Source: an uncultured Candidatus Saccharibacteria bacterium (GTDB lineage Bacteria > Patescibacteriota > Minisyncoccia > Phycocordibacterales > UBA5272). From it: a stretch of DNA of 64,000 bases. The stretch covers positions 47,591 through 111,590 of the forward strand of contig CAZWMQ010000002.1 of NCBI GenBank assembly GCA_964635125.1, in the 5' to 3' direction. The notes under the pieces are model-generated. The model saw nothing but the letters and a program-made list of their open reading frames with translations, was not told the origin of the DNA and did not search any database. This document shows, piece by piece, positions 2,298-63,200 of this stretch (positions within the stretch are counted from its first letter, which is position 1; each line of letters starts with the position of its first letter). A program made the position numbers and the translations under genes.

Positions 2298-3662
2298 ATG
2301 ATTTCAACCAAAATCACAAAAAGAGTATTCGTGGCTATTATTGACTTTCTGATCTTAGCTTTTTCTCTATATATATCCATCTCTTTAAGAGATTTAGAAT
2401 TCAAATCTAAAGCAGAATATCTTAGCATATTTTTACCATTTTTAATCATTATACTCTCAAATATCTTAGTATTTTATATTTATGGTCTTTATGACAAGAT
2501 GACCACTAAGATCTATCGAGAATTAAATCAGAGAATCCTTATTAGCCAAATTATTTCTTCGGTGATTGGAGCGATTATTTTCTATACTTCCTCCTACTTT
2601 ACAATTGCTCCAAAGACAATTTTAATAATATATATAATAATCTCTAGTGTTCTGATCTTTATTTGGAGAAGATACGCTCGACTATTTATTAAATCCCCTA
2701 AAACTATCAACTTACTATTAGTCGCCGAGGGAGCTGAGCTTCTAGAATTAAAAGAAGAGATAATGAATAATAAAATCCTAGCCATCAATAAAGTTGATTT
2801 TATAGATCTACTCGAAAATAAAGAGCTAGACTTATACACGAAGATAAAAGAGAAAGTCAATAAAGAGAAATTTAATATGCTAGCCATTAATATGCATCAC
2901 TCTCATATTAAAAACTCTGTCTCTTTATTTTACGAATTACTTTTAGATAAAGTTAATGTGCTTAATTTTGCCGATCTCTATGAAGAAGTTTTAGGAAAGA
3001 TACCACTTAATAATATAGACGCTAGCTGGTTCTTCAATAATCTAAACCAAAGTAAAAACAATTTCTACTCAAATATAAAAAGATTTATGGATTTATTAAT
3101 TTCTGCCCCCGCTTTATTTATTTCTTTAATCTTTTATCCTTTCGTCTATCTTGGACTTAAGATTCAAGATGGTGGCAATTTATTTTATATCTCGGAAAGA
3201 ATCGGTAAGAATAATAAGCTAATCAAAATATATAAATTTAGAAGTATGAATCAATTAAGAAGTATAGAGGTTGATTATATTAATCCCAAAGAGAAAGATA
3301 GAGTTACAAAATTTGGCAGATTTTTAAGAAAGACTAGGATAGACGAATTACCACAATTAATAAATATAATTAATGGAGATATCTCTTTAATTGGTCCAAG
3401 ACCAGAGGCTCCAACTCTCGTCAAAGAATATTCAAATCAAATACCCTTTTATAGTATTCGCCACACTATAGTTCCAGGATTATCTGGCTATGCCCAGATC
3501 TATCAAGAACAAAAGTTAGTCCCAAAGTTTGGCTTATCCACAAATGCCACCAAAGACAAATTATCTTTTGATATTTATTATTTAAAACACAAATCTCCGA
3601 TAATGGATTTATCTTTAATCTTAAAGACGATTAAGAATTTATTAGGTAAAAGTGGGGTATAA
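2298..3662 (+). CDS. polyprenyl-phosphate hexose-1-phosphate transferase (WbaP/CpsE-like bacterial sugar transferase), priming enzyme
   Basis: N-terminal TM helices plus C-terminal Bac_transf-like region 'IKIYKFRSM...RIDELPQLINIINGDISLIGPRPE'. Confidence 0.8.
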   Translation: MISTKITKRVFVAIIDFLILAFSLYISISLRDLEFKSKAEYLSIFLPFLIIILSNILVFYIYGLYDKMTTKIYRELNQRILISQIISSVIGAIIFYTSSYFTIAPKTILIIYIIISSVLIFIWRRYARLFIKSPKTINLLLVAEGAELLELKEEIMNNKILAINKVDFIDLLENKELDLYTKIKEKVNKEKFNMLAINMHHSHIKNSVSLFYELLLDKVNVLNFADLYEEVLGKIPLNNIDASWFFNNLNQSKNNFYSNIKRFMDLLISAPALFISLIFYPFVYLGLKIQDGGNLFYISERIGKNNKLIKIYKFRSMNQLRSIEVDYINPKEKDRVTKFGRFLRKTRIDELPQLINIINGDISLIGPRPEAPTLVKEYSNQIPFYSIRHTIVPGLSGYAQIYQEQKLVPKFGLSTNATKDKLSFDIYYLKHKSPIMDLSLILKTIKNLLGKSGV

Positions 3663-18206: not shown

Positions 18207-18575
18207 TTAATTTAAACTTACTGTCGCTCCTGCTTCTTCTAATGACTTCTTTAGGGCTTCAGCTTCGTCTTTCTTAACATCTTTCTTAAGATCAACTGGG
18301 GCACCATCGACTAAATCTTTAGCTTCTTTCAAACCTAATCCTAGGGCTTCTTTAACTACTTTCATTACTGCAATCTTACCCTCACCAGCGCTTTCTAATT
18401 TTACATTGTAAGTTGATTTCTCTTCAGCTCCGGCATCACTAGCACCTCCAGCTGGAGCAGCCGCTACAGCTTGAGCAGAGACTCCAAATTTCTCCTCAAT
18501 TGCCTTTACTAATTCATTTAATTCCAAAACTGACATTCCGTCAATCTTATCTAATAGATCTTTGTGTTTTTCCAT
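18207..18575 (-). CDS. rplL: 50S ribosomal protein L7/L12
   Basis: '[21 protein letters not shown]...[44 protein letters not shown]' matches the L7/L12 family. Confidence 0.95.
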
Positions 18576-18635
18576 AATTTTTATTTTTATTTTCTAATTT
18601 TAATAATTTTGTATAAATATTTATAATAAAATATT

Positions 18636-19124
18636 TTAATTTTTAATTTTCGCTACTTCATTAAGACCAATTGCTAATCTTTGAATTGGTGATTTTAATA
18701 AAAAGGCGATCTGAGAAATAAGCACCTCTCTCGATGGGATAGTAGCAATACTCTTCATCTCAACTTCTGATTGAAAAACTCCATCAAATACTCCTCCAAC
18801 AATAGAGAAAATATTCTTATGTAATTTAGAAAAGTCATTGGCTAATCTGGCTGGAGTTAACATATCTTCTCCTGAAATAACCGCCATCTCTTCATTAATT
18901 ACAGGTTTCTCCCCAGAGTATTTCCTTGTATCAACTGCTCGATTCCAAAGAGTTTTCTTAACTACATTATACTTAATCCCTTCTTTATATAATTGCTTAC
19001 GAATTGATTCAGTATCTTTGACATTCAGTCCTTTAAACTTAACATAAACGAAAGTCTTAGCATTGTCTAAGATTTTGCCATATTCATCAATTAATTCTTT
19101 CTTTTTATTTTTGGTTAAAGCCAT
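18636..19124 (-). CDS. rplJ: 50S ribosomal protein L10
   Basis: Position upstream of rplL plus L10-like sequence. Confidence 0.85.
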   Translation of the reverse strand: MALTKNKKKELIDEYGKILDNAKTFVYVKFKGLNVKDTESIRKQLYKEGIKYNVVKKTLWNRAVDTRKYSGEKPVINEEMAVISGEDMLTPARLANDFSKLHKNIFSIVGGVFDGVFQSEVEMKSIATIPSREVLISQIAFLLKSPIQRLAIGLNEVAKIKN

Positions 19125-19380
19125 AAATAATTATTTTTATTTCGCTAAGATTAAAATCTTAGCGACTAATTTCTAATAAACAAAAATCTCTCGTTAAACG
19201 AAAGATTTGAGGTAAACTTTACAAGACTTAAGACCTAAGCTTCAAGACTAAAGATAAATTCTTATGTCTTAAGTCTTACTTCTTTTGACTTGTTACGACC
19301 TCCGTGAGCTTATGTTTTGAGGGCTTTCGCCCACTCACTTCTTTGGTTTACTTATATAGTATAACATATCTCAGCTATTT
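19125..19380 (-). promoter_or_regulatory. rplJ leader with promoter (extended -10 'TATGTTATACT' at ~19368-19377 on the - strand) and structured leader
   Basis: The -10 matches the consensus seen in the 1-960 array. Leader hairpin 'GTGAGTGGGCGAAAGCCCTCAAAACATAAGCTCAC'. Long imperfect palindrome of AAGAC/GTCTT heptamers at 19200-19290. Confidence 0.5.
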
Positions 19381-19655
19381 AAGCAAAAATAAAAGACCAT
19401 TAATTGTAATATAATAATAGTCTTATTTATAAGCTCTTTTATGAGTAAGATGCCAGGTGTTACAAAGATCACAATAATAATCTCTAAGCATCACACCTTT
19501 TTCTTTTTTTAAAAAATTTTTCTTGGTTTTCGCTTCTTTTTTTGTATAATGTATTTTATCAATACATCTCTTTTCTAAATTTTCTATAAAATTTTCCTCT
19601 TTTTCAATTTCTTTTTTTTGAAACTTTTTAAAAAGAGGGAGAAAAGAAGTATAAG

Positions 19656-19713
19656 TTCCTGGTTTAACCAGGAATCTTTTTTTATCTCTACATTATGCTG
19701 TAGAGATTTTTTA
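19656..19713 (+). terminator. twin rho-independent terminators on the + strand
   Basis: 'TTCCTGGTTTAACCAGGAA' followed by T9. 'ATCTCTACATTATGCTGTAGAGAT' followed by T6. Confidence 0.5.
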
Positions 19714-19878
19714 TACTCTACATTCATAAAAAAATATTTTTTATTAATGAATTATTCTATTATAGATTTTATCACTTAAATTAAAAATTGTCAAATAAAT
19801 ATAAAAAATCAAAAAACACTGAATAAACCCAGTGTTTTTTGAATAGAGAACTTAAAATTATAAATAATCTTTGAGTCC

Positions 19879-19995
19879 TCTGTTCTCCCGAATAGCTACT
19901 CTTGCTAATTAAAGCTACCATCGCTCTATGAAGTCTTCACGATCCAGTTCGGAATGAGATGGTGTGTTACCCTTCATCCAAATCAGGAGAACAGA
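19879..19995 (-). rRNA. rrf: 5S rRNA
   Basis: Reverse complement aligns with bacterial 5S ('CCGAACTGGATCGTGAAGAC', 'GATGGTAGC...GAGTAGC'). Helix I 'GTTCTCCTGA'/'TCGGGAGAAC'. Confidence 0.8.
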
Positions 19996-21695
19996 AAACT
20001 CAAAAGAGATTGGAGAGAGAAGCGGAGTCGAACCACTACCTTCTCATAAATTATTATTTCGTAGTTACTTTTCAGATGGTAACTCGGATAGAATTAATAA
20101 ACTTATGTGATGTCCTAACCGTTAGACGAGCTCTCTTCAATCTTTTGAGTATAAAATCCTATAATGATGTGAGAAGTTTTACTTCTCAATTCGAAAAACT
20201 AAATAAAAATCAAAATAAATTTCAATCAATAACTAGTCTTCCGAATTGAAAAGTAAAATATATAAAAATAATTAATGATAAACATATTTCCTAATAGGAT
20301 ATGGGTATTAGTAATCCTCAGCTGAATGCATTACTGCACTTACACTTAGACCCTATCAACGTAATCATCTCTTACGACCCTTATAGAATACTTATCTTGA
20401 AGTTGGCTTCGTTCTTAGATGCTTTCAGAACTTATCCATTCCCGACTTGGCTACTGGGCGATCCAGCTAGCGCTAGAGCCCACACACCAGAGGTCAGTTC
20501 ATCTCGGTCCTCTCGTACTAGAGATAAATCTTCTCAATATTCCAAACGCCTGCAGTAGATAGGAGACCAACCTGTCTCACGACGGTTTGAACCCAGCTCG
20601 CGTATCTTTTTAAATGGCGAACAGCCATACCCTTGGGAGCTTCTTCACCCCCAGGATAAGATGAGCCGACATCGAGGTGCCGAACTCCACCGTCGCTATG
20701 GACGCTTAGGTGGAACTAGCCTGTTATCCCCGTGGTAGCTTCTATCCGTTAATCTTCAACTGCATCTAATGCAAATTGTCGGTTCACTATGTTCTACTTT
20801 CGTATCTGCTCGACATGCCCGTCTTACAGTTAAGCCAGTTTATGCCATTACACTATCGGCACGGTTTCCATTCGCGCCTAACTGACCTTAATAAACCCCT
20901 CCGTTACTCTTTAGGAGGGTACCGCCCCAGTAAAACTCCCCACCAGATACTGTCTCTCAACGTTTTTTCCGTTGAGGTTAGTGTTTGCCAAGTTACAGAT
21001 GGCTATTTCACTGTCGACTCCATGACAACCGAAATCGTCACTTCAAAGTCTCACCACTATACTACGCAATAAATTAACAAACACAATACCAAGCTAGAGT
21101 AAAGCTCACGGGGTCTTTTCGTCTAACTGCAGGTAGGCGGCATCTTCACCGCCACTGTATTTTCACCGAGCTACTCCCTGAGACAGTTCCCCAGTCATTA
21201 CACCATTCGTGCACGTCTGAACTTACCAGACAAGGAACTTCGCTCAACTGTTCCTTTAAAAGTTGGACTCTATCTTCATCTTTCTTTTACAAGTTAAGAT
21301 GCGTACCGCTGGTCTCTAGTTAGGTACATTGACGCATAATATATTTCTATAAGTGCGGGTAGCTTTATAAATGGTTAATGAATTTAAAACTATTTCCTAA
21401 AACAATCACGACACTAATCTTATCGTCCCAATCATTTCAGATACAAATAATATTTATATCTGAAACCTTAGGACGATTATAGTTATCGCCGACATTGACG
21501 GGGGCTTATATCAGTCAGCCACATGGCAAATTCAAAGTTAGTCCAAAATAAATTTTAAACGCTTTAAATCCACCATGTGACCACCGATATTTGACCTTCC
21601 CGCATTGGTCAGGTGTCACCCCATATACATACTCTTACGAGTTCGCATGGAGCTGTGTTTTAGATAAACAGTTGCCAGAGAAACTTTCGCTGCGG

Positions 21696-22087
21696 CCCAC
21701 ACTATAAAGCTCTCTTTAAATCTTCAAAATCTAAAGAGAGAAAATAGGGTGCCGGTAAATTGGTACTACTCAATAATGGATCATACTGAACGTTACTCGT
21801 ATGATTAGGCTTTTTTTCTTCCGAACCCCAACTTCAAAGATTTCTTTTACAAGAAATAAATCCATTGTTTGTCGAACAAAAATGCTATTACTTTCAACAT
21901 GACTGTGATTGCATATTGAAAAACATTTCTGACGGAGGTGTTTCGCTTTCCTATCAACACCTCGTAGCGTTTACTAAAACTCTGCAGTTCTAGCTGATCA
22001 TTTAAGACCATTTCTCATTATTAACTAATCTCATACCAATTCCCGAGCAATACTTTCAAGCTCATAAAAAGAGCTTTATAGTGTGGG
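21696..22087 (-). repeat. 392-bp insertion in 23S flanked by perfect 18/19-bp inverted repeats
   Basis: 'CCCACACTATAAAGCTCTC' at 21696-21714 and 'AGAGCTTTATAGTGTGGG' at 22070-22087. Confidence 0.55.
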
Positions 22088-22691
22088 CAAGCCTTATTGC
22101 TAACTTACGGCTGCTTTTTTGCCTAGTTCCTTGGGGAGAAATCACTCGTTCGCCTTGGTCTACTCGACCTGAATACCTGTGTCGGTTTGCGGTACGGACT
22201 TATATAAATTTAAAGTATTGCGGATTTTGTGAATAATGTATCCTAGATGACTAGCTACATTATTCACAAAGCAATATCTACTATTCAGTAGATGTAGAAA
22301 CTTTTCTCGGCACAGTGCTCCTTTATCTTCACCGGTATTGCTACAAGCTTCACTTCATAACTCTCGGTATTCAAGAACTGATTTACATGCTCTTGCCAAT
22401 CATTACAAAGACCACAATCTGATAAGTGGCATAAAATACAACCATGCGTCATTCCATCACATTTATACAAGGTAAAGGAATATTAACCTTTTGTCCATCG
22501 CCTACGGCTCATCGCCATCGGCTTAGGCCCGACTAACTCTTCGCTGACAACCATTGCGAAGAAAACCTTATTCTTTCGGCGTGGGGGGATCTCACCCCCA
22601 TTGCGGTTACTTGTGCCAACATTCGTACTTCTACACGCTCCACGGCGGGTCACCCCTTCCGCTTCATCGCAGAGTAGAACACTCGTCTACC

Positions 22692-22836
22692 GATTGTAAT
22701 TTTCACAAGAAAGAGAAATAACTATTTACTAATTAGGGCGAAGGTCTGACTAATAAATTTATTAAAAAATAAATTTATTAATTCTGCTTCCAAACTATTA
22801 GTCATAATACTTATCTCCCTTGTGAAAATTACAATC
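22692..22836 (-). repeat. 145-bp intervening sequence in 23S flanked by perfect 18-bp inverted repeats (helix-45-type IVS)
   Basis: 'GATTGTAATTTTCACAAG' at 22692-22709 and 'CTTGTGAAAATTACAATC' at 22819-22836. AT-rich interior with a duplicated 12-bp palindrome 'AATAAATTTATT'. Lies ~1.2 kb from the 23S 5' end. Confidence 0.6.
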
Positions 22837-22911
22837 CCTAAACTTCGGTGATATGTTTGAGTCCCGATCATCTGTGGCGCAGAATCTCTCGATGGGTGAG
22901 CTGTTACGCTA

Positions 22912-22946
<35 letters not shown>

Positions 22947-23520
22947 CATTGTCAATGAAATTCCACCTCCTCACTTACACTTAACATATACTTAGGGACC
23001 TTAATTTTAGATCTGGGCTGTTTCCCTTTTGACCACCGGAGCTTCGCCCCCGGAGTCTTACTGCTAGACTATTAAACTTTGGTATTCGGAGTTTGATAGG
23101 TATTGCCGTATTTCTACTAGTCAAGACCTTCCAGTGCTCTACCCCCAAAGCGAACATCTAACGCTATTCCTATAAATATTTCGACGAGAACCAGCTATTA
23201 CCAAGTTCGATTAGCTTTTCACTCCAACCCACAAGTCATCCAAAAGAGTCGCACGACTTACTAGTTCGGGCCTCCACTTATCTTTCGACAAGCTTCGCCC
23301 TGCTCATGGGTAGCTCACCTGGCTTCGGGTCTTTATTATTCAACTATTATTTCGCGCTATTCACACTCGCTTTCGCTTATGACTCCATCACTTTATACGA
23401 CTTAGTCAGCTGAATAATAAAACTCGTTGGCTCATTCTTCAATAGGCACGCAGTCGAGGTGCAAGCACCTCTCCTACTCTTTGTAAACATATGGTTTCAG
23501 TTCTATTTCACTCCCCTCCC

Positions 23521-23564
<44 letters not shown>

Positions 23565-24454
23565 ACTCAAGGAATATTTAGCCTTACCGGTTAGTTCCGG
23601 CAGATTCACCCGAGCTATTCGTGTCTCGAGTTACTCAGGATAAGAGATAAAAAAGAGTTAAATATTTCGAATACGGGACTATCACCCTCTTTGGTGCTAC
23701 TTTCCAATAGCTTATACTATAAATAACTTTTGTAACTTTCCTAGATAATTCTACATCTCTTCCCTACAACCAACTTAGTATTACTACTAAGAATTTGGGC
23801 TTCTCTGTTTTCGCTCGCCGCTACTTGCAGAATAACATTGTTTTCTTTTCCTGTGGGTACTGAAATGTTTTACTTCCCCACGTACGCTTCTAAAGATATG
23901 CTCCCTAGATTCCAAGACTTTACTCTTGGAGAGTTTCCTCATTCAGATATCTTCGGATCGAAGGTTAAAAGGCACCTCCCCGAAGCTTATCGCAGCCTAA
24001 TCACGTCTTTCATCGCTTCCTTGAACCAAGGCATCCACCTTATGCTCTTATTTCCTATTAGGAAATATATTTACCATCTTTATTTTTAACACCGCTGTCA
24101 AAAATAAATATTATTTTTATACAGTGTCTATATTATTCTCATAATATAGACTTACCTTTATTTTCACATCTATATACATTGCCTGAAAAGACCCCAAGAT
24201 ATTTGGGATATCAAATTGTGCAATGCTATAGGATTCTATTGACAAATAACTTGTCTAAATTTTTGAAAATAAAAACCGCTTTTTAAGCGGCGACTAAAAA
24301 CACTTTTTAGAAGCTGCTTAATTTTTCTGTTTTAAATTCAACATATTTAGGTCTTTCAATATTAACATAATGGAAATAAAAATGCAAACCAATCTGATAT
24401 CTAATTGCTAGTATCTAGTTTCTAGTTAAAATAACCTTTCTAGATAACTATAGG

Positions 24455-25771
24455 TTATTTCGGAAGGTAATTTAGAGGATTAAGGTAAGCATTTAATGGA
24501 GCATATGGCATGACCATATAAGTTCCGCAAGTTCGGCTCTTATATTCCTTTGGACCAAATATTTTTACTGCATCGGAAGCAATTACCGTAAAGTGTAAAT
24601 GTGGCCCGGTCACATAGCCAGTTTCTCCGGATAAGCCAATCTGCTCTCCAGTTGATACTGTTTGTCCTTCTTTAACATCTATTACTGATAAATGCCCATA
24701 TAAAGTAGATAGTCCATTATTGTGTTTAATTAATACCCATTTACCATAGCTCGCTTTTTTACAAGCAAGATCAGTATTACCTGTTCCCATTACTATCCCA
24801 TCGCTAGCAGCCGTAACTTTAGTTCCAACTGAAGCTCCCAAGTCAATCCCATTATGACCATGACCATTATAAGCACCGGTCGCGGCAAAATCTGTGTCTC
24901 CAAAATATTGAGTGATAATATGTTTCTCCATTGGTCAAACTAATCCATTCCCTGTTGATGGTAATTTACTTTTATCTAAAATGTATTTTATTTTAGATTC
25001 ATAATCATTAATCTCATCTTGTAGATCTTCTACTTTGTTTTTATTTGCTTTAATTATAGCTTGATATTCTGCTTCTTCATTTTTAGTTTCTCTTAATAGA
25101 GAATTCTGCTCATCTTGATTATCTTTTATTAAACTTTGACGACTATTTAGATCTCGTGAGAGATTATTTAATTTATTTTTCTGATCGAGATAAATATTCT
25201 TATTATCCTCTAAATCCGAGATAGCTCCGTTAATTAAAGCAATCTTTTCAGTTAAAATTCCATTAAATGAGGTTAATTTATAAGTAGTGTTTAAAAAATC
25301 ACTCAAATTTCCGTCCCCTGCTTTAATTATATTTAAAAGAAAGTTATCTTTATCACCATATTCTCTTATTTCTTGTAAAGTATTAACTATTGCTTCTCGA
25401 TTTTCAGAAATTATATCGTTATTATCACTAATCTTATTAACCGTAGTTAAAATATTATTTTCAGCATTTTTAATTTTGAGATTGTTGAGTGAGATTTGAT
25501 TTTGTAAATCTTTCTTTTGAGATTCTAATTTTTGTATGGCCTTTTTTAAAGTATCTGCTTCGGCTTGAGTAGTGGCGACCTTATTACTATATTTATCAAT
25601 CTCAGCTTGGAGATCTGCAATCTGTTGATTACGATTATCTATTTCTTTTTGAAATTGAGTTATGTCTTGGGCAGAAGCTAACTTAATAGATATTTTAAAT
25701 AAAAATATTGAAAAAAAGAAAATTAATAACACCAAAAATACATTAATTGTTAATATCTTCTTACCCACCAT
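24455..25771 (-). CDS. EnvC-like M23 metallopeptidase: N-terminal TM, long coiled coil, C-terminal M23 domain. Merges 2 track ORFs through TGA
   Basis: The coiled-coil ORF (25771-24935) and the M23 ORF (24931-24455) share one frame across TGA at 24932-24934. That gives '...GNGLV-W-PMEKHIITQYFGDTDF', the conserved M23 'WP..G.I.S.FG' motif. Catalytic 'HNGIDLG' and 'GPHLHF' are present. Confidence 0.75.
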
Positions 25772-25834
25772 ATTAATATTATTATAACAAAATATTTATA
25801 CTTTTATAATAAATTATTAATATTTATACAAAAC

Positions 25835-25866
25835 AAAAACACCCGATAATTTATCGGGTGTTTTGC
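25835..25866 (-). terminator. rho-independent terminator (bidirectional hairpin)
   Basis: 'AAAAACACCCGATAATTTATCGGGTGTTTT'. Confidence 0.7.
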
Positions 25867-26037
25867 TATTCACTTTCGCCTTCGGTTCGCTGTAATTATG
25901 TAAGCGACTTTAAGCTTTCATGAATATATTTTATCCACCGTCGCCGAAGCTATGGCGGGACAAAGCAGAACTAATTGTTCTTAAACTTGATCTAAGAATA
26001 TATTGCTATATTTTTAGATTTTAGAATTAGATACAGA

Positions 26038-29000
26038 TTAGTATACATTGTAAGTAGTTAACAAAGTACCAAGTTTAGCTGTTGAAGAAGCATAATTGGT
26101 TACTCCGTCAATCACATCAGACCATTTGAAATTGGCTGCTGCACCGACTGTTACATCGTATGTCTGTGAATTTGATGATCCGTTGACAATGTCTCCATAG
26201 ATATCAAAGTTTACAGATTGTCCAGCTCCAATTCTGTATCCAGAAGCGAAGGTTGTGCTAGTTGCAGAAGCTACTCCAGAAATTGTAGTAACATCTGTAC
26301 CATTAGCTTTAACTACTACATTGCTTGCTGATACTGAGAAAGGAAGAACGAACATTGTTACATCTCCATGAGAATCTGCGGCAACATTAATTGTTCCGAT
26401 CTTAACTCCAGTAGTTGTTCCAGAATTTACTGAAACTCCACTTGTAGTCTTCTTTACAGTAGGTAGAGAAGCTACTAAAGTCATAGTATTAGCGGCAACT
26501 GAAGGGGTAATTGTAGTCTGAGTTCCACCAGCAGTATATTTAACTGAAGTTAAAGTAATTGTGCTAGTTGATCCTGAATCTACACCTCCTTGATTAGTTT
26601 GAGTAACAGCTGAGTAAGTAATAGCTACTGGAATATTTAATCCTGAAGCACCTGAAGTAACTCCTAGATTAATTCCGTAGAAATTAGCTACACCGCTAAT
26701 TACATTAGCTGTAACACCATTGATAGTTAGAGATTGAACTCCGGTACCACCAACTGTAAATCCTAAGTCATTTAGAGTTGCATTACCATTAGTTGATACT
26801 ACGTTGTAAGTAGCTACAGCATTAACTGTAGATCCTCCAATTAAATATCGATTTCCAAGAGTAGAAGCAGTTACTAAAGTAGGAGTTCCAACTGAGACAG
26901 AAGCTGCTGTCATAGTAGGAGCAGTTGCTGATTGAGTATTAGTTACAGAAGAAACAGTTCCTCTGTAGCTTACAGTTGAAGAAGCAATAATAGTATATCC
27001 ATTAGTAATCTCAAGAGTATCTACCCAGACTTCAATAGTCTTAGTAGTTCCAGCAGGAACAGTGTAATTTACTGAGAAATTATTAGTTCCAGTTACTGGG
27101 ACAATAGTTTGTGAACCATCAGTAATTCTTAAGTTAGTATAATCTACTCCAGCTGAAGCAGTTCCACCTAAGATTACATTAATGTTAGTAACATTAATAG
27201 CCTCAGATGAACCAGCTTGTAGAGCAAATGATCCAATCTTAACTCCTGTTTGATTCTTAGAAATATTAGCTGCAGTAAATCCAGCAGTTGCTCCGTAAGC
27301 AACATTACCAGAATTAATAGACAAAGATTGTCCAGTAGCTGTAGGAACGGATATTGTGTTGTATGAATATTGTCCTTGAGCTAAGTTAGAGCTTGATGAA
27401 GCTACATCAACTCTAAGAGTACCTGAAGTAATATTTGCATTACCACTATTTACTAAGTCACCTTTAACTTCAACGACTGCTGAAGATCCAGCAGGAATAA
27501 TTAAGTTAGAACCTAAGTTGAAAGTAGTGTTAGATCCAAGAGTTAATTGAACTCCGGAAGAAACAGCTGCTCCATTGACATAGACAGTAACATTATTAAT
27601 CGCTGTAGTTGTAGGACTTAGAGCTACAGTAGCTGTAGCATTAAGGGTAAGATTTTGAACTTTCACATCTTCTCCATAAGCATAGAACTTATAAGAAGCT
27701 AAAGTTTGATTAACTGAGCCACCAACTACTGTTGAAGCAGCGAAGGCTGAGTTTTGTGAAATAGTTAAAGATCCACCACTAATAGTAATTGTTCCAGCTT
27801 GTCCAGATGAACCTGTGAAGGCAGCTGAAGACTTAGTAACAGTTACATTAGCTCCATATAATTGTGAATCTTGTAATGCTACATCTCCAGCATTCTCAAG
27901 AGTTACATAGAAATTTCTACTTGATCCCTTAACAATATCAGCTCTAACATCAAAAGTGTGAGAACCAGTATTAAGTGATAAAGGACTCATTGAGTAGAAA
28001 GTTACATAACCATTAGCTGAGAAAGCTGAGGCATTAGCAAATTGAACTCCATCTACATATAATTTAACATTAGCTAATGAATCTACCGGAGCAGATCCAA
28101 TCATTCGGAAAGTCATAGAACCTAGATTAACAGCTCTAGTTCCAACATTAAGTGCTGAAGACCAGACTGTCGCTCCAGTTACACCTGCATTCATAGAAGT
28201 AGAAGCAGGAGTGATTGTTCCGAAATCAGCTGTAGCTAAAGTAGCTGAAGCAATTGGAAGAGCAGGACCGTTTAATCCTGAAACCATTGCCATAGAGCTA
28301 CCCATAACTGTATAACCAGTTAAAGATACTCCAACTGATTGTCCTGATGAAGATCCAGCAATATCAGCTAGAACAGAGACTGTTCTTGAGCCAGATACTG
28401 CAAATATTCCAGAAGCATTGTTAAATGTGATTGTGCCGTCAGTTAAAACTGAAGCAGCATCAGTTAATCTAGCACCAGTCATAGCATCATATAAATATAC
28501 ATTAGATAATGTACTATTATTAGATACACCTAATCTAGATAACTTAACACTAACTACAGAACCATTACCTGTGAAGACAAAGTCAGCTAATTTAGCTCTA
28601 GCTGAACCTTGTACTAATACATTACTTGGTTGTACTGAAGAAAGTGAAACACTAACCGCTCCTGAAGTAGGATTAGTTGGGTTAGTAGGATTAGTTGGAT
28701 TGGTTGGACCAGAACAACTATTCATAGCTCCTCTTGATGAAGAACCAAAGAATCCTGTTCCTTGAGCTAATCCCCAAGGTGCTAATACTGTTGCAGCATT
28801 AGCATTTTGCCAAGCAATAACGGCAGCCTTAGTTAAGCCACCGAAATATGAAGTCTCCATTCCTGGAGATCCAGCACCACTTGCAGCAATTTGAAATCCT
28901 TTAGAGTTAAGAGCTTGTTGTAAAGCTTTAACATCTGCTCCAGAAGCTCCTAGAGAAAGATTTCTTGTGAATTGATAGCAAGCTGGAGCTGATTGAGCTG

Positions 29001-29073
29001 AAGCAAGCATTGCTCCAGCTAAAGCACCCGCTGAGATAGCAGCTAAAGCTGCTGTCTTTAATTTGAAATTCAT
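26038..29073 (-). CDS. S-layer-like large surface protein: signal peptide, peptidoglycan-binding domain, (PTN)4 linker and a long A/S/T/G/V/N-rich beta-repeat region
   Basis: Signal peptide 'MNFKLKTAALAAISAGALAGAMLASA'. PG_binding_1-like 'LSLGASGADVKALQQALNSKGFQIAASGAGSPGMETSYFGGLTKAAVIAWQ'. Codon usage differs from its neighbours (GC-richer third positions), consistent with very high expression. A leader hairpin and promoter lie upstream. Confidence 0.7.
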   Translation of the reverse strand: MNFKLKTAALAAISAGALAGAMLASAQSAPACYQFTRNLSLGASGADVKALQQALNSKGFQIAASGAGSPGMETSYFGGLTKAAVIAWQNANAATVLAPWGLAQGTGFFGSSSRGAMNSCSGPTNPTNPTNPTNPTSGAVSVSLSSVQPSNVLVQGSARAKLADFVFTGNGSVVSVKLSRLGVSNNSTLSNVYLYDAMTGARLTDAASVLTDGTITFNNASGIFAVSGSRTVSVLADIAGSSSGQSVGVSLTGYTVMGSSMAMVSGLNGPALPIASATLATADFGTITPASTSMNAGVTGATVWSSALNVGTRAVNLGSMTFRMIGSAPVDSLANVKLYVDGVQFANASAFSANGYVTFYSMSPLSLNTGSHTFDVRADIVKGSSRNFYVTLENAGDVALQDSQLYGANVTVTKSSAAFTGSSGQAGTITISGGSLTISQNSAFAASTVVGGSVNQTLASYKFYAYGEDVKVQNLTLNATATVALSPTTTAINNVTVYVNGAAVSSGVQLTLGSNTTFNLGSNLIIPAGSSAVVEVKGDLVNSGNANITSGTLRVDVASSSSNLAQGQYSYNTISVPTATGQSLSINSGNVAYGATAGFTAANISKNQTGVKIGSFALQAGSSEAINVTNINVILGGTASAGVDYTNLRITDGSQTIVPVTGTNNFSVNYTVPAGTTKTIEVWVDTLEITNGYTIIASSTVSYRGTVSSVTNTQSATAPTMTAASVSVGTPTLVTASTLGNRYLIGGSTVNAVATYNVVSTNGNATLNDLGFTVGGTGVQSLTINGVTANVISGVANFYGINLGVTSGASGLNIPVAITYSAVTQTNQGGVDSGSTSTITLTSVKYTAGGTQTTITPSVAANTMTLVASLPTVKKTTSGVSVNSGTTTGVKIGTINVAADSHGDVTMFVLPFSVSASNVVVKANGTDVTTISGVASATSTTFASGYRIGAGQSVNFDIYGDIVNGSSNSQTYDVTVGAAANFKWSDVIDGVTNYASSTAKLGTLLTTYNVY

Positions 29074-45252: not shown

Positions 45253-47190
45253 TTATTCCTCCCCCACCAAATCCCTCAACACTTCCTCTGGGACTTCTTT
45301 TAATTTGTTTCGTAAATTGTTTCTTTTTTCTTCCTCTATCTTAATCTTATCTTGCTTAATATCTTCAACACTCTCTTTAATATTTTCAGTCTCTTGTCTC
45401 ATCTCTACTTGATTATCTTTAATCTTTTTCTCCAATTCCTGATTATCTTCTTTTAAACTTTTAACCTTTCCATCTTCAATCTTAATAGCTTTAGCTAAAG
45501 CATCTTTTAAAGATTGATGATTAGCTTCGGACTCAACTCTTTGTTTCTCAACCCCTTTTCTTAATTTAGATAATTCAACTTCGACAATGTCGTTTTTCTT
45601 ATCATTATAATCCCTCTTAGAACGAGCCCGTTTATTCCTAAAATCATTATAACTTACTTCTTTACTCTCATTTAACTCTTGATTATTATTTTCATTTCGA
45701 CTATATTCGTAATTTTTATTTAGAGAATTATGGATATTATTATTTTGAATTATAGTCTTAGAATTATTTTGATAATTCTGATTAGTTTTATTGAAATTAT
45801 TCTTCTCAAATTGATAGTTAATCTTAGCGGGAGCATTTTGTTTTTCTAATTCTTCAATCTCTTCAATATGTTTAGTCTTTGGAACTGGTAAGAACCATTC
45901 TCTGATCTCTTCTTCCACGGCTTCCTTAGTCTTACTATAGTGATCTCTAGTATACTGAATAATATCATTAGCATATGTAATATCGCCTTTCTCAATTGGT
46001 GGGAGAGCTTTAGCTGAGAATGGTTTAGAGCCAACATTATCAATCATTAATCTCAGATAAATCTGATAAGCAGATAAATTCACAATATCATCAGCAGTAA
46101 AAACTGGAGCGAACTCTTTCTCAAATACCTCAGCATCATGAGCTCCAATTCTAAAAGTGATCATTGTTCCAACATTACCAAATACTGCCGACTTAACTTC
46201 CTCAGTCATCTGATCAATATATTGATGAGCAACGGTTAGAGCTAAATTATATTTTCTAGCTTCAGACAAAATATCGGCAAAGCTTTCGTTAGCGAAATTC
46301 TGAAACTCATCTACATAGAAAAAGAATGGTGGTAAAGTAGATAAATTATCATTCCCGGCATCGGCTCTAGACATAGCTGCTAAATATATTTTCGTAATTA
46401 ATAATGATCCTAAAAGATTAGCATTACCTTCCCCGACTTTCCCCTTTGATAAATTCACTATTAGTATTTTCCGATTATCCATTATCTCTCGTATATCAAA
46501 ACTAGTTTTCTTCTGCCCGATAATATTACGAATTAATGGATTAGATGTATATTGGCCGATCTTATTCTGTATCGCAGGGGCGGCTTCTTGTTGATATTTC
46601 TCACCGGCTTTAGCAAATTCTTCTAGCCAAAATGACTTTACTGATGGATCTTTTAAATTAGAAATCATCTTACGACGATAATCTTTATCACTTAACATAC
46701 GATTAATTCCCATTAAAGTTTCGTCATCGTTTTCAAGTAAAGTTAAAATAATATTATTTAAAATATATTGCATTCTATCGGAAAACTTATCCTCACCGAA
46801 TACTTTCTTAAAGGCCGCCATTAATCCATTAGCTACCAAATGTCGCTTATTAATATCGACTTTCTCTAAGACATTCAAAGCTAAGGGATGCTCCGTATCA
46901 AATGGAGCAAAGTAAATCACATCTTTAATCCTATGTTCTGGGACAAAGTCTAATAATTTCTCAGCAGTTCCACCATGCGGATCTAAAAAAGCTAAACCTT
47001 CGCCATTCTGTATGTCTTGAATAGCCATATTCTCAAGTAAAGTTGATTTACCCATACCGCTTTTACCAATAATATAAGTGTGTCGTGTTCTATCTTTAGA
47101 CTTAATACCAAATTTCACCATCTTATTGCGATAGTCAATATTTCCAAGATAAGTTATGCGATTAGGATCGTTCAAATCTATATCATCCAT
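45253..47190 (-). CDS. VirD4/TraD-like type-IV coupling-protein ATPase with a K/E/N-rich coiled-coil C-terminal extension
   Basis: Walker A 'IIGKSGMGKST'. Walker B 'FFFYVDEFQNF'. 'TVAHQYIDQ' motif. Confidence 0.55.
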   Translation of the reverse strand: MDDIDLNDPNRITYLGNIDYRNKMVKFGIKSKDRTRHTYIIGKSGMGKSTLLENMAIQDIQNGEGLAFLDPHGGTAEKLLDFVPEHRIKDVIYFAPFDTEHPLALNVLEKVDINKRHLVANGLMAAFKKVFGEDKFSDRMQYILNNIILTLLENDDETLMGINRMLSDKDYRRKMISNLKDPSVKSFWLEEFAKAGEKYQQEAAPAIQNKIGQYTSNPLIRNIIGQKKTSFDIREIMDNRKILIVNLSKGKVGEGNANLLGSLLITKIYLAAMSRADAGNDNLSTLPPFFFYVDEFQNFANESFADILSEARKYNLALTVAHQYIDQMTEEVKSAVFGNVGTMITFRIGAHDAEVFEKEFAPVFTADDIVNLSAYQIYLRLMIDNVGSKPFSAKALPPIEKGDITYANDIIQYTRDHYSKTKEAVEEEIREWFLPVPKTKHIEEIEELEKQNAPAKINYQFEKNNFNKTNQNYQNNSKTIIQNNNIHNSLNKNYEYSRNENNNQELNESKEVSYNDFRNKRARSKRDYNDKKNDIVEVELSKLRKGVEKQRVESEANHQSLKDALAKAIKIEDGKVKSLKEDNQELEKKIKDNQVEMRQETENIKESVEDIKQDKIKIEEEKRNNLRNKLKEVPEEVLRDLVGEE

Positions 47191-60201: not shown

Positions 60202-63200
60202 TTATTGAGTAGGAGTTGAGGTAGCTTCTGATGTGGGTGTTGATTCTGGGGTTATTTGTGGTTCAGTTGTTGGAGTTGAGTCAGGTGTTGAAGTTGATTC
60301 TGATGTAGTTTCAGTAGAGTTCGAAAAATTGTCATCTATAGTATTTGAGGTAGTTGAGCTATTGTCTGAATTAGTCTCAGTAGTTGAAGATCCATTACTA
60401 ATATCAGGAGTAGTCGTTCCGTTATCTGTATTTGTTTCTAAAGTGGTTGAGCCATTATTATCTGAGCTTGAAGAAAACTCGCTTCCTCCACTAGTATTGG
60501 TATTGCTATTCGAAGAAGAATTTTGAGTATTTAATAATTCTTGTAATTGATTAGCATTAGTACAAACTTGCTGCCCATTTTCATTAATCAAACAAAGTTT
60601 CTTCGTCTCAATAAGATCAGAATATAATTTTACAAAATATCCTCTGATAGCAGAAATTCTTAATACTACCAGGTTAGTTAGTAATTCATACCCGGATGAT
60701 AATCTATTATGAATTGTTTGTAAAACATCTATATTATTTTCATTGGTTATAAGATCTATGGTGTTAGTAGCATCACTATTAATTGTTAAAAGAGAATCGC
60801 TACCATTTAAAGTATTGAAAGTTGATTTTAAAGAAGCTACAATATATGGAGTGAATCCTCCATAATTGACTCCTTTCAATCCTCCTGGGTCAGTAGAAAC
60901 CAAATCCGAAAATAATTGTTCTACTTCTTGGGCTATAAATCCAGTATGCTTTGAGCTTGAGCTAGACTCTATTTTCCAATTATAACTAACAGGGTTTAAA
61001 ATTAAAAGTTTATCTAAGACCGATAAGGAGCTAGTAGCTATATTATTATTTAAAACAAACTGAACTTCACTGTTATTTAAAATTGCCGAAGTATTAACTA
61101 AATCTATATTCTTCTTTAAATTAATATCGGAAGAACAAGTCAAAGAAGTTGTATTTGGACTAATCGTACAATTCCCACTACTATTAGTAAATCTAGCGAC
61201 TACACCTGAAATACTACTATTACCAACATCTAAAGTGTATTGTGGAGTAGATGTAGCAATACCTATATAATCACTACTCAAATCCCCATAAATAGTATTC
61301 CCAATATTCAATTGATTATTAGAGGTAGAAGCAGTAACATCTACATTATAACCAATTAAGATATTGTCATGACCGGTAGTGATAGAGTCTCCAGCTTGAT
61401 AACCAATAGCTGTGTTATTGTATCCAGTGCTATTATTATATAAAGCACTCAATCCAATACCAGAGTTACTTCCTCCAGTAGTATTATTTCTAAGAGTTCC
61501 TCGACCAACTGCCACATTAGATTGTCCAGAAGTAGTATTTTGAAGAGCATAAGATCCAAGTCCAACATTGTCACTAGAACTTGTGGCGCTATTAATAGCT
61601 TGATAACCGATAGCCACATTATCTAATCCAGTTAAGTTATTCTGTAAAGCATAAGTACCTAAAGCCAGGTTTCCACTTCCACTAGTGTTAGCAGCTAAAG
61701 AGTTAACTCCAAGTCCAACATTATCATTTCCATCAATATTAAATCCTAAAGCATCATTACCTATAGCTATATTATTAGTACCTATAGTATTAAAATCTAG
61801 AGCATATGGTCCGATGGCGACATTATTTTGAGAACTAGTAGAGTGATTAAGAGCTAGGTGACCAATGGCTATGTTGTAGCTTCCAGTAGTCATACTCTGC
61901 ATAGCATCAAATCCTATGGCTGTATTTCTATTACCACTAGTTATATTTTGTAAAGATTCAGATCCTACTCCTGTATTATATTGTCCGGAGGCTGATGAAT
62001 TACCTGAGTTACCAAAGAAATAGCTGTTTAAGGTTGTGGAGGCAAAGACGAGAGAAGTTCCATTTAAAGTAACTTGACTTGTAGTACTAACTATCACTCC
62101 TGTTTCATTTAACCAAGAAGCTGTGGTGCCATTAGTATATAAGAATTTACCAGCATTGCCAGATTGAGATGGAAGACCTCCACCTGAAACTGTCGCCCAA
62201 GCTACCACTCCACTTCCATTAGTTTGTAAGACTTGTCCGTTAGTTCCATCAGTATTAGGTAAAGTGTAGGCTCCGATCTTTAAGGTTCCAGTGAAGCTAC
62301 CGGTTCCGGCAACAGTTAGGGTTTCATTTAGAGTAGAAGTTCCAATCCCAATCTTTCCACCAGAAATAGCTGTGGTGGTTGGATTACCAGAAGTAGTTGA
62401 ATATAATCCTGTTCCAAATAATATTCCACCAATGTTAAGAGAGTTAGTGGTTGCATTAGGTAAAGAAACATTGGTTCCAATAATAATATTGTTATTACCT
62501 ATGTTATTAGAAGTAAAAGACATACCAGCTTGATAACCAATCAGATTAGAGTATTGAGCATTATCTGCTCCATATCCAGCAGATGTCCCAATGAAGTTTG
62601 AATTATCTGCATCAGTTGCACTATATCCAGCATTATAACCAAGGAAGTTAGCATAAGAAGTTCCATTTGCACTATATCCAGCAGAATCACCAATGAAGTT
62701 AGATTCATCTGAACTGCTAGCATTATGTCCAGCATCTGTCCCGATAAAGTTAGAATATGGCGAACTAGTAGCATTCTGCCCAGCACTTGTCCCAATGAAG
62801 TTAGAATCATTCGAATTGCCAGCATTCATACCAGTATTTAAACCAAAGAAGTTAGAGTCTCCGGAATTAGCTGAATAATTACCGGCTTGATGACCGAAGA
62901 AGTTAGAATAACTTGAATCATGAGCATTTTGTCCAGACCAACCAATATAGTTAGAGATAGAGTTATAAGCTTGATAACCAGCATAATAACCAATACCTAC
63001 TGCTCCAGCTGAATTATAAGCACCATATCCAGCACTTAGACCAAAGAAGTTAGTGGCTCAAGAACCATTAGCTCCATAACCAGCATTTTCTCCTAAGAAA
63101 TTAGATTCGTGAGTACCAGTAGCATTTTGTCCAGCTCCATCTCCTAAGAATACTGATTGATAAGCATCTGATCCGTTTCCAGCATTATTACCTAAGAATA

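What the first reader, a model, noticed from the sequence alone, without database searches (positions are those of the whole stretch)
21696..22836. 23S rRNA carries two insertions bounded by perfect 18-bp inverted repeats (145 bp and 392 bp)
The 23S gene is ~3.77 kb. Two extra blocks are each bracketed by a perfect 18-19-bp inverted repeat, so each forms a long helix in the rRNA. That is the architecture of RNase-III-excised intervening sequences, and it implies a fragmented mature 23S. The first sits ~1.2 kb from the 5' end, a helix-45-like position. The 392-bp one is large enough to be a degenerate intron or a captured element. The rRNA genes are also unlinked: 23S and 5S are here with no 16S.
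Basis: partly seen in the sequence, partly recalled or inferred. Interest (0 to 1): 0.5.

Follow-up and report, generated by a model that had tools for sequence, protein, structure and literature searches.

The report
Hairpin-bounded insertions in a CPR 23S gene

Summary
The 23S gene (20289-24061, minus strand) is 3773 nt. It carries a 145-bp block (22692-22836) closed by a perfect 18-bp inverted repeat and a 394-bp block (21695-22088) closed by a 19-bp perfect (24-bp with G.U) repeat. These sit at the tips of helix 45 and helix 63.

The organism is a Paceibacteria-like CPR bacterium. Syntenic relatives with about 90% identical 23S lack one or both blocks, or carry unrelated sequence at the same sites, so they are sporadic insertions rather than clade-wide expansion helices.

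In 80-95 related metagenomic 23S genes, H45 is occupied in 12/82 and H63 in 22/94, always closed by a long helix. One relative's H45 insertion encodes the classical 23S IVS protein.

The H63 element matches no Rfam family, has no ORF, and has no second copy. A covariance model built from four distant 428-462-nt H63 elements finds it at E=3e-8, so it belongs to a structured family.

A third sporadic insertion (21245-21464, 220 nt) is a group-I-like intron at E. coli position 1931.

Excision and 23S fragmentation are plausible but cannot be tested here. CPR rRNA insertions are well documented, so this is a new member of a known kind.

The parts
20289..24061 (-). 23S rRNA gene, 3773 nt. The core without the three sporadic insertions is 3034 nt at 44% GC.
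   Evidence: Rfam RF02541, 2196 bits, model 1-2925; GC values.
22692..22836 (-). Helix-45 block from arm to arm. The perfect 18-bp arms are 22819-22836 and 22692-22709, and the helix runs 23 bp with G.U pairs. The outer 7 bp are native H45. The inserted sequence proper is 22699-22829 (131 nt, 24% GC) and replaces the 6-10-nt tip seen in relatives.
21695..22088 (-). Helix-63 block. The native base pairs are GCC (22086-22088) and GGC (21695-21697). The inserted element is 21698-22085 (388 nt, 35% GC) and replaces the 12-nt tip (TGTAGCAATACA) of relatives. The outer helix is 24 bp, with arms 22065-22088 and 21695-21718.
21695..21836 (-). 3' domain of the H63 element, matched end to end by a covariance model built from four other H63 elements. 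It contains a local hairpin (21710-21740) that competes with the long-range outer helix.
   Evidence: 38.7 bits, E=3e-8, next best 12.4 bits; covariation; I13.
21245..21464 (-). Group-I-like intron, 220 nt, inserted after E. coli U1931. The junctions read ...AAGGT|TTCAG...CAGTTG|AGCGAA.
19883..19990 (-). 5S rRNA, a short 108-nt form, lying 298 nt downstream of the 23S.
   Evidence: Rfam RF00001, 40 bits.
23734..23787 (-). 54-nt expansion after E. coli 278, present in all eight close relatives. It is a true lineage-wide expansion and serves as a contrast to the sporadic blocks.
21515..21590 (-). Extended helix-68 tip, 40-59 nt longer than in E. coli in all relatives (clade-wide).

Best explanation
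Both blocks are IVS-type insertion elements in the single 23S gene of a Paceibacteria-like CPR bacterium. Each replaces the tip of a surface helix (H45, H63) with an AT-rich sequence whose ends pair into a helix of 23-24 bp.

Inferred mechanism: the pre-23S is transcribed with both elements. The long double-stranded stems are cut, most likely by RNase III. The elements are discarded without religation. The small intron at 1931 is spliced out. The mature 23S then consists of pieces of about 1.24, 0.61 and 1.19 kb, held together by the remaining helix stubs and ribosomal proteins.

Shown here: position, architecture, sporadic distribution, family relationships, and the absence of ORF, intron and transposon features.

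Inferred only: excision, the enzyme, and fragmentation.
For: Site and architecture:
- The blocks sit at the H45 and H63 tips.
- Their outer helices are 23 and 24 bp, with fold z-scores of about -9.

Sporadic distribution:
- Of seven syntenic relatives with 86-92% identical 23S, six lack the H45 block and L010 carries an unrelated 158-nt one. Six lack the H63 block and L011 carries a different 141-nt one.
- In the wider sample, H45 is occupied in 12/82 genes and H63 in 22/94.
- All 18 distinct H63 insertions at least 88 nt long extend the H63 stem; the uninterrupted outer helix is 11-24 bp in 16 of them and 4 bp in two (L031, L063).
- The H45 insertions have outer helices of 13-23 bp.

Link to classical IVSs:
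- The H45 insertion of L098 encodes a 23S_rRNA_IVP protein (PF05635, 100 bits).
- H45 insertions of five to six other loci carry tRNA-shaped elements, which would make most sense if released by processing.

Evolutionary rate:
- The H63 elements evolve faster than their flanks: 69-82% identity against 94-98%.
- They still keep their helices through compensatory changes.

Host and literature:
- The host is CPR, judging from names on L10 homologues and from gene content.
- 82% of CPR 23S genes carry insertions of 100 bp or more. [quoted passage not shown]
- Most CPR rRNA insertions were predicted to be removed, by comparing genes with transcripts (Brown et al. 2015, as cited in PMC9297842).
Against: - There are no RNA data for this organism, so nothing shows that either block is removed.
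- No RNase III gene lies in the 64 kb (signature scan negative). Its presence in the genome is assumed.
- H63 is not one of the classical IVS sites I know of (helices 9, 25, 45; own knowledge). In eukaryotes the same helix carries a retained expansion segment, ES27L.
- The H63 element has conserved interior motifs and covarying hairpins across hosts with only about 68% identical flanks. That is more than a disposable spacer needs.
- GC content does not discriminate. The clade-wide expansions, which are presumably retained, are as AT-rich (30-36%) as the insertions.
Confidence: 0.6

Rival explanations
1. One or both blocks, especially the H63 element, are retained expansion segments. They stay in the mature 23S as long solvent-exposed arms, and the 23S is not fragmented there. 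This would be a bacterial analogue of eukaryotic ES27L on H63.
For: - Both sites are surface helix tips that tolerate extra RNA.
- The H63 family keeps a multi-helix fold with compensatory changes and conserved A-rich motifs.
- The clade already has small retained expansions of similar GC content.
- CPR normally lack H63 (PMC9297842), so regrowth there would be tolerated.
Against: - The blocks are present or absent among 23S genes that are 88-95% identical, and unrelated sequences occupy the same site.
- The elements diverge 3-6 times faster than their flanks.
- The literature reports that CPR rRNA insertions are mostly missing from transcripts (PMC9297842, citing Brown 2015).
- H45 insertions in relatives carry an IVS-protein gene or tRNA-like cargo.
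Confidence: 0.2
2. The 388-nt H63 element is a functional structured RNA of a new class. It could be a self-processing (self-cleaving or self-splicing) element, or a two-state RNA that switches between terminal hairpins and a long-range helix. In this reading it is not a passive RNase III substrate.
For: - It is homologous to four 428-462-nt elements in distant hosts.
- In the 3' domain, 15 of 40 pairs show changes on both sides, 97% of cells are paired, and 0/500 shuffles reach the observed values.
- Motifs are conserved: GAAG..GG.UCG.AAGAAAAA, CCAU.AU.GA.UA and CCGGC.
- Each arm of the outer helix also has a conserved local partner.
- No known RNA family matches.
Against: - Only five members are known, and four of them are close relatives with identical 3' ends.
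- The alignment used for the pair counts was fitted to the model.
- No catalytic motif was recognised.
- Structure conservation is also expected for a processing stem or for a recently shared ancestor.
Confidence: 0.12
3. The blocks are DNA transposon remnants (MITE-like), and the inverted repeats are terminal repeats of a mobile DNA element rather than RNA helices.
For: - The inverted termini are perfect for 18-19 bp.
- The distribution is sporadic.
- Transposase-bearing insertions with inverted ends are known in the 23S genes of Nostoc and Deinococcus (PMC2672173).
Against: - There is no target-site duplication at either junction.
- No second copy exists in the 64-kb window, in about 100 related loci, or in viral contigs.
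- There is no transposase or other ORF.
- Part of each repeat is the native rRNA helix itself.
- G.U pairs extend the helices only at the RNA level.
- The arms show compensatory changes between family members.
Confidence: 0.05
4. The blocks are an assembly artefact or chimera of the metagenomic contig.
For: - The exact window sequence of the two blocks was seen in only one assembly.
- Independent Logan contigs of the same organism (L002, L003) break inside the 23S, at about nt 3481.
Against: - The junctions are base-precise replacements of helix tips and keep the rRNA helix in register.
- The same architecture recurs in dozens of independent assemblies.
- A homologous H63 element occurs in four other samples.
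Confidence: 0.03

Closest known systems
Classical bacterial 23S rRNA intervening sequences (helix 25 and helix 45 IVSs of Salmonella, Campylobacter, Leptospira and Coxiella), excised by RNase III without religation
   Same: - The H45 block is at the same site.
- The helix tip is replaced by an AT-rich sequence with complementary ends that form a long stem.
- Presence is sporadic among close relatives.
- A relative (L098) carries the hallmark IVS-protein ORF at this site.
   Different: - Neither window block has an ORF.
- The second block is at helix 63, which is not a classical IVS site as far as I know.
- The host has an unlinked, probably single-copy 23S gene.
- Excision has not been shown.
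rRNA insertion sequences of CPR/Patescibacteria (Brown et al. 2015; Tsurumaki et al. 2022 and 2024, PMC9297842 and PMC11270868)
   Same: - The host group is the same.
- Several insertions sit in one 23S gene at recurrent hot spots.
- There is a mix of group I introns (1931 is hot spot 23IS7) and ORF-less non-intron insertions.
- The non-intron insertions at known IVS sites are interpreted there as IVSs.
   Different: - Those surveys leave the 469 ORF-less non-intron 23S insertions uncharacterised.
- A homologous, structured H63 family with covarying helices, and the alternative terminal pairings, are not described in the text I could read.
- I could not verify whether helix 63 is one of their 14 numbered sites, because the figures are not held.
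Eukaryotic expansion segment ES27L on helix 63
   Same: It sits on the same helix tip and is a long flexible RNA arm of hundreds of nucleotides.
   Different: - ES27L is retained, conserved within lineages, and functional in recruiting factors at the exit tunnel.
- The element here is sporadic among close relatives and evolves fast.
- There is no evidence that it is retained.
Group I introns at 23S position 1931 (Thermotoga, Simkania, organelles, CPR)
   Same: This comparison concerns the third block only.
- The insertion point after U1931 is identical.
- The intron ends in G.
- The conserved S-like element AAGAUAGAGUCC is present.
- P8- and P9-like hairpins are supported by covariation in 10 homologues.
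   Different: - It is only 220 nt and has no homing-endonuclease ORF.
- It scores 22 bits against Rfam RF00028, whose gathering threshold is 50, with a very short P4-P6 region in the alignment.
- Self-splicing is untested.

Membership tests
Bacterial 23S rRNA IVS (RNase III type) | Replaces the terminal loop or tip of a variable, surface-exposed 23S helix | tested here: met
   H45 tip (model 1213-1218) and H63 tip. Relatives have an 8-9-bp H45 hairpin and the GCC-TGTAGCAATACA-GGC mini-H63 at these places. H45 is a classical IVS site; H63 is not.
Bacterial 23S rRNA IVS (RNase III type) | The 5' and 3' ends are complementary and form a long double-stranded stem | tested here: met
   Continuous helices of 23 bp (H45) and 24 bp (H63) in the minimum-free-energy folds, with z = -9.1 and -9.4. 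No shuffle gave an inverted repeat longer than 13 nt.
Bacterial 23S rRNA IVS (RNase III type) | Sporadic presence among closely related strains, species or operons, with variable sequence at one site | tested here: met
   H45 is occupied in 12/82 genes and H63 in 22/94. Unrelated sequences occupy the same sites in L010 and L011.
Bacterial 23S rRNA IVS (RNase III type) | Excised from the precursor by RNase III without religation, so the mature 23S is fragmented | not testable with these tools
   No RNA data are available. No RNase III signature was found in the 64-kb window, and the rest of the genome was not available.
CPR/Patescibacteria rRNA insertion sequences, non-intron ORF-less class (PMC11270868) | The host is a CPR bacterium | tested here: met
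   The closest L10 homologues (68-84% identity) are named Candidatus Paceibacterota, Nomurabacteria or Pacebacteria. GC is 30%, the 5S is a short 108 nt, and the gene content fits.
CPR/Patescibacteria rRNA insertion sequences, non-intron ORF-less class (PMC11270868) | Insertion of 100 bp or more relative to E. coli 23S, with no group I or II model hit and no annotated ORF | tested here: met
   The insertions are 123 and about 376 nt relative to E. coli. There is no Rfam hit at E<=10 for H63. For H45 only the gathering-threshold scan was run, and it gave no hit other than the 23S itself. The longest ORF is 54 aa.
Group I intron (considered for the 392-bp H63 block) | Conserved catalytic core (P3-P8, R/S elements), U before the 5' splice site, terminal G, and exon ligation that restores a functional rRNA | tested here: not met
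   RF00028 did not hit at E<=10, nor did it hit the homologous elements in L071, L083 and L085. Removing the block exactly would leave GCC|GGC with no loop.
Group I intron (third block, 21245-21464) | Core elements, U at the 5' splice site, terminal G, and a known homing site | tested here: inconclusive
   RF00028 scores 22.2 bits (E=8e-4 locally), below the gathering threshold of 50. U1931 precedes the block and G ends it. Thirteen homologous introns occupy the same site, with covarying hairpins and a conserved exon-pairing UGGGAC. Presence or absence is base-precise. Splicing was not tested.
MITE or IS-type DNA transposon | Terminal inverted repeats plus a target-site duplication and multiple genomic copies | tested here: not met
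   There are no flanking direct repeats. No other copy was found in the window, in related loci or in viral contigs.
Lineage-specific rRNA expansion segment | Present and alignable in all members of the clade | tested here: not met
   The blocks are absent from 6 of 7 syntenic relatives. By contrast, the expansions at E. coli 278, 1544, 1579 and 1870-1881 are in all eight.

The most novel reading that the evidence does not exclude
The H63 element is a member of a previously undescribed class of large (about 390-460 nt), complex-folded RNAs that live at the tip of 23S helix 63 in Paceibacteria. Its ends can switch between two terminal H63-like hairpins and one 24-bp long-range helix. It either processes itself or is kept as a bacterial ES27-like arm, and so is not a passive IVS.
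Probability: 0.13. Interest if true: 0.65.

Novelty: new member of a known kind. Interest (0 to 1): 0.3.

Why it matters
Taken alone, the window adds one more example of the rRNA insertions already catalogued in 82% of CPR 23S genes.

Its value is as an entry point to the half of those insertions that are neither introns nor ORF carriers and remain uncharacterised. Three things come out of it:
- Helix 63, which CPR otherwise reduce to a mini-hairpin, is a recurrent insertion site.
- At least one H63 element family is homologous across distant hosts and keeps a multi-helix fold.
- In relatives, helix-45 insertions carry an IVS-protein gene or tRNA-shaped cargo.

If transcript data confirm excision, this organism builds its only large-subunit rRNA from three pieces plus a spliced junction. 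That also matters practically for rRNA-based detection, read mapping and RNA integrity measures in CPR studies.

Tried and rejected
- **Known RNA family for the H63 block.** Rfam at E<=10 gave only noise, and the homologous elements in other loci also had no hit.
- **ORFs in the H63 block.** None is longer than 54 aa, and none looks real.
- **Repeated or mobile DNA.** blastn of both blocks against the window and all loci found no other copy.
- **Phage origin.** A degenerate motif scan of viral contigs gave 33 matches. All were chance matches, with a best covariance-model score of 13.5 bits.
- **Sequence-only homology of the H63 block to the L062 group.** nhmmer found the co-linear place but at E=1.2. 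Only the covariance model resolved the relationship.
- **Close genomes through L10 in the species-representative genome collection.** The only match was a 30% identical Ignavibacteria hit, so that scan was wasted.
- **GC content as a discriminator of excised versus retained RNA.** It is uninformative, because the clade-wide expansions are equally AT-rich.
- **RNase III gene in the window.** No signature was found.
- **tRNA-like cargo in the window's own H45 block.** No T-loop motif is present.
- **Site numbers of the 2024 CPR survey.** I tried to learn whether helix 63 is one of its numbered hot spots, but the positions appear only in figures that are not held.
- **Brown et al. 2015.** The paper is not held.

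Full report
**What is in the sequence.** Rfam finds one full-length bacterial 23S rRNA on the minus strand at 20289-24061 (3773 nt for a 2925-position model). A short 5S lies at 19883-19990, and there is no 16S anywhere in the 64 kb. For the first, the arms are 22819-22836 and 22692-22709, a perfect 18 bp. For the second, the arms are 22065-22088 and 21695-21718: 19 perfect pairs, one G.U, then 4 more. In 200 shuffles of the gene no perfect inverted repeat longer than 13 nt appeared. As RNA the two blocks fold with z-scores of -9.1 and -9.4, with continuous outer helices of 23 and 24 bp.

**Placement on the 23S structure.** The covariance-model alignment puts block 1 in the terminal loop of helix 45 (model 1213-1218). 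It puts block 2 in the tip of helix 63 (the 12-bp helix at model about 1751-1775). A pairwise alignment to E. coli rrlH gives insertions after E. coli 1179 (123 nt) and across 1704-1769 (about 350 nt).

**Host.** The window is 30% GC. It encodes FtsZ, FtsA, FtsK, HisRS, RodA, L10, L7/L12, an M23 peptidase and many proteins with no family match. The closest L10 homologues (68-84% identity) carry names such as Candidatus Paceibacterota, Nomurabacteria and Pacebacteria. This is a Parcubacteria-type member of the Candidate Phyla Radiation (Patescibacteria).

**Are the blocks shared by relatives?** I fetched contigs through L10 homologues, and seven of them carry a syntenic 23S-5S-L10 locus. Their 23S genes are 86-92% identical to the window's and range from 3033 to 3793 nt.
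- Expansions after E. coli 278 (54 nt), 1544, 1579 and 1870-1881 are present in all eight sequences.
- The H45 block is present only in the window (123 nt net) and in L010 (158 nt, unrelated sequence).
- The H63 block is present only in the window (376 nt net) and in L011 (129 nt net, unrelated sequence).
- The 1931 block is in five of the eight.
- Relatives also have further sporadic blocks at 2359, 2500, 2512 and about 2590.

Relatives have a plain H45 hairpin (GGGATTGTATG-TTCG-CATACAATC) and a miniature H63 (GCC-TGTAGCAATACA-GGC). The window keeps the helix bases and replaces the tips.

**Wider sample.** One metagenome scan with a clade-specific 23-mer just upstream of H63 returned 89 stretches. 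Relative to the insertion-free 23S of L014, insertions of 40 nt or more occupy H45 in 12 of 82 genes that cover it. They occupy H63 in 22 of 94 and positions 1917-1933 in 19 of 81. Other hot spots lie at 128, 273, 542, about 1860, 2500, 2593 and 2657. The 18 distinct H63 insertions at least 88 nt long (up to 462 nt) all extend the H63 stem; the uninterrupted outer helix is 11-24 bp in 16 of them and 4 bp in two (L031, L063). H45 insertions of 71-483 nt have outer helices of 13-23 bp. Hairpin-bounded tip replacement is thus a general habit of this group, and helix 63 is a regular site for it.

**The H63 element.** It matches no Rfam family at E<=10. It has no ORF above 54 aa. It has no second copy in the window or in any fetched locus by blastn.

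Four metagenomic 23S genes (L062, L071, L083, L085) carry 428-462-nt H63 elements. Their outer helix is also 24 bp and differs from the window's by four compensatory pair changes. Sequence alone does not prove homology: nhmmer finds the co-linear place but at E=1.2. However, the last 139-146 nt of all five have the same order and spacing of motifs. The order is GAAG..GG.UCG.AAGAAAAA.AGCC, then a hairpin of unrelated sequence, then CCAU.AU.GA.UA, CCGGC and the 3' arm.

A covariance model built from the four elements only (R1) hits the window once, end to end, at 21695-21836. The score is 38.7 bits (E about 3e-8) against 12.4 bits for the next best. On the resulting five-sequence alignment, 97% of cells pair and 15 of 40 pairs show changes on both sides. 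No shuffle out of 500 reaches these values, and slid controls pair at only 42-56%. Two caveats apply: there are only five sequences, and the alignment was fitted to the model. No further member was found among about 100 loci or 33 viral contigs.

The four elements are 69-82% identical to each other while their rRNA flanks are 94-98% identical. The window's flanks are only about 68% identical to theirs. The family is therefore fast-evolving but structurally maintained. It occurs in two distant host lineages, and closer relatives of the window lack it. That pattern fits either lateral spread or ancient origin with many losses.

**An unexplained detail.** Each arm of the outer helix also has a nearby local partner. 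The 3' arm pairs with the segment just upstream (window 21710-21724 with 21726-21740, I13). In the four relatives the 5' arm pairs with a segment about 20 nt downstream. The model structure used is this local 3' fold, and it covaries. The long-range helix covaries too. The ends look like two copies of an extended H63 hairpin flanking the interior. I cannot tell whether this reflects the element's origin or a conformational switch.

**The H45 block.** The interior is 24% GC and is a simple rod with an apical 15-bp A/U hairpin. The part of its outer helix beyond native H45 (ATTTTCACAAGGGAGA) loosely resembles the consensus seen in several other H45 insertions (A[C/T]TTCA..[A/G]AGGA). Ungapped, 7-9 of 15 positions match, against 1-5 of 15 for a second group. 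This is suggestive only.

Two findings in relatives tie this site to processed IVSs:
- The 483-nt H45 insertion of L098 encodes a 124-aa protein that matches Pfam 23S_rRNA_IVP at 100 bits. This is the ORF typical of classical helix-45 IVSs.
- The H45 insertions of L010, L017, L044, L100 (two copies), L045 and L055 contain tRNA-shaped elements on the rRNA strand. They have canonical T-loops (GGTTCGAATCC or GGTTCAAATCC) and 7-bp acceptor stems but aberrant anticodon regions.

The window's own H45 block has neither feature.

**The third block.** 21245-21464 is inserted exactly between U1931 and A1932 of the E. coli numbering (...AAGGT|...|AGCGAA) and ends in G. Rfam's group I model matches it at 22.2 bits (E=8e-4 in a local search), which is below the gathering score of 50. 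The match includes the conserved AAGAUAGAGUCC element. Thirteen distinct introns of 193-248 nt occupy the same site in related genes. In the 10 of them that were aligned, RNAalifold finds a conserved pairing of exon GUCCUA with intron UGGGAC and several hairpins with compensatory changes; 21 of 42 pairs have changes on both sides. Relatives lacking the block have a base-precise empty site. Position 1931 is a known group I intron and homing-endonuclease site in CPR 23S genes (PMC11270868). I call it a group-I-like intron without an ORF. Self-splicing is untested.

**How it most likely works.** Position, architecture, sporadic distribution, lack of coding or transposon features, and family relationships are all shown here. 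The rest is inferred. The pre-23S contains all three blocks. The 23-24-bp stems are cleaved by a double-strand-specific RNase, with RNase III the established enzyme for classical IVSs. The elements are lost without religation, and the intron is spliced. The 23S then functions as fragments of roughly 1241, 612 and 1189 nt. These sum to 3042 nt, close to the 3033-nt insertion-free gene of L014.

The literature supports this reading. Most CPR rRNA insertions were judged to be removed on the basis of gene-transcript comparison (Brown et al. 2015, as cited in PMC9297842). [quoted passage not shown]

The main rival is that one or both arms are retained. This applies especially to the H63 element, whose conserved fold is more than a spacer needs and whose site hosts ES27L in eukaryotes. 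DNA alone cannot decide between the two.

**Novelty.** Insertions occur in 82% of CPR 23S genes. Of 968 insertions, 433 are group I introns and 469 are ORF-less with no intron hit, and the latter are left uncharacterised (PMC11270868). CPR usually lack helix 63 (PMC9297842). The window is therefore a new member of a known kind. The modest new content is the definition of a homologous, structured H63 element family, its two-way terminal pairing, and the cargo seen in relatives' H45 insertions. I found no description of these in the papers I could read, but the search was limited to open-access text.

Noticed in passing
It is a 220-nt ORF-less group-I-like intron placed exactly after E. coli U1931. 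It ends in G and carries the conserved AAGAUAGAGUCC element. It scores below threshold against Rfam RF00028 (22 bits). Homologues occupy the same site in 13 related genes, and other relatives have base-precise empty sites.
   Followed up: yes
L010:6429-6608, L044:1671-1852(-), L017:608-876(-), L100:230-537, L045:931-1311(-), L055:2025-2405(-): Helix-45 insertions of related CPR 23S genes contain tRNA-shaped elements on the rRNA strand. They have 7-bp acceptor stems and canonical T-loops (GGTTCGAATCC or GGTTCAAATCC) but odd or expanded anticodon arms. L100 has two. ARAGORN calls them only partly, or only with introns allowed. They could be RNase P/Z processing signals or embedded tRNA genes. 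I found no report of this in the held literature.
   Followed up: partly
L098:2053-2427 (minus strand), inside its 483-nt helix-45 insertion (2035-2517): A 124-aa ORF matches Pfam PF05635 (23S rRNA-intervening sequence protein) at 100 bits. This is the hallmark ORF of classical helix-45 IVSs, here in a related CPR 23S gene.
   Followed up: yes
window 21710-21740 and 22050-22085; L062, L071, L083 and L085 H63 elements: Each arm of the 24-bp outer helix of the H63 element also has a conserved local pairing partner next to it. The ends can therefore form either two terminal hairpins or one long-range helix. Both alternatives show compensatory changes. Neither the origin nor the function of this is explained.
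   Followed up: partly
window 23734-23787, 22206-22255 and 21515-21590; same places in L008-L016: Small expansions after E. coli 278, 1544/1579 and 1870-1881 are present in all eight close relatives, so they are true clade-wide expansions. Helix 63 in relatives is reduced to an 18-nt mini-hairpin, in line with the reported loss of H63 in CPR.
   Followed up: partly
L010:8275-8546, L011, L013, L016, L071:134-693 and many metagenome loci: Related 23S genes carry a mosaic of further sporadic insertions at E. coli 128, 273, 542, about 1860, 1917-1933, 2359, 2500, 2512, 2593 and 2657. Some are clear group I introns, such as L010 at position 2500 (89.9 bits). Gene length ranges from 3033 to 3793 nt within genes that are about 90% identical.
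   Followed up: partly
window 19883-19990 (minus strand): The 5S rRNA is a short 108-nt form that only just passes the Rfam threshold (40 bits against 38). This agrees with the 105-110-nt 5S reported for Parcubacteria.
   Followed up: no
window 18207-29073; L008, L010, L011, L012, L013: Gene order is conserved around the unlinked rRNA locus in relatives: a large PG_binding_1 protein of about 1000 aa, then in some an M23 peptidase, then 23S, 5S, L10 and L7/L12. No 16S lies within 10 kb. An L10 leader (RF00557) is called upstream of L10 in L051, and more weakly in L010, but not in the window at the gathering threshold.
   Followed up: no
window 45253-47190 (minus strand) and 60202-62829 (minus strand): There is a TrwB/TraG-like type IV coupling ATPase homologue, and an 875-aa protein with a Peptidase_S74 (endosialidase chaperone) domain. 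These may be mobile-element or phage-derived genes. They are unrelated to the rRNA finding.
   Followed up: no
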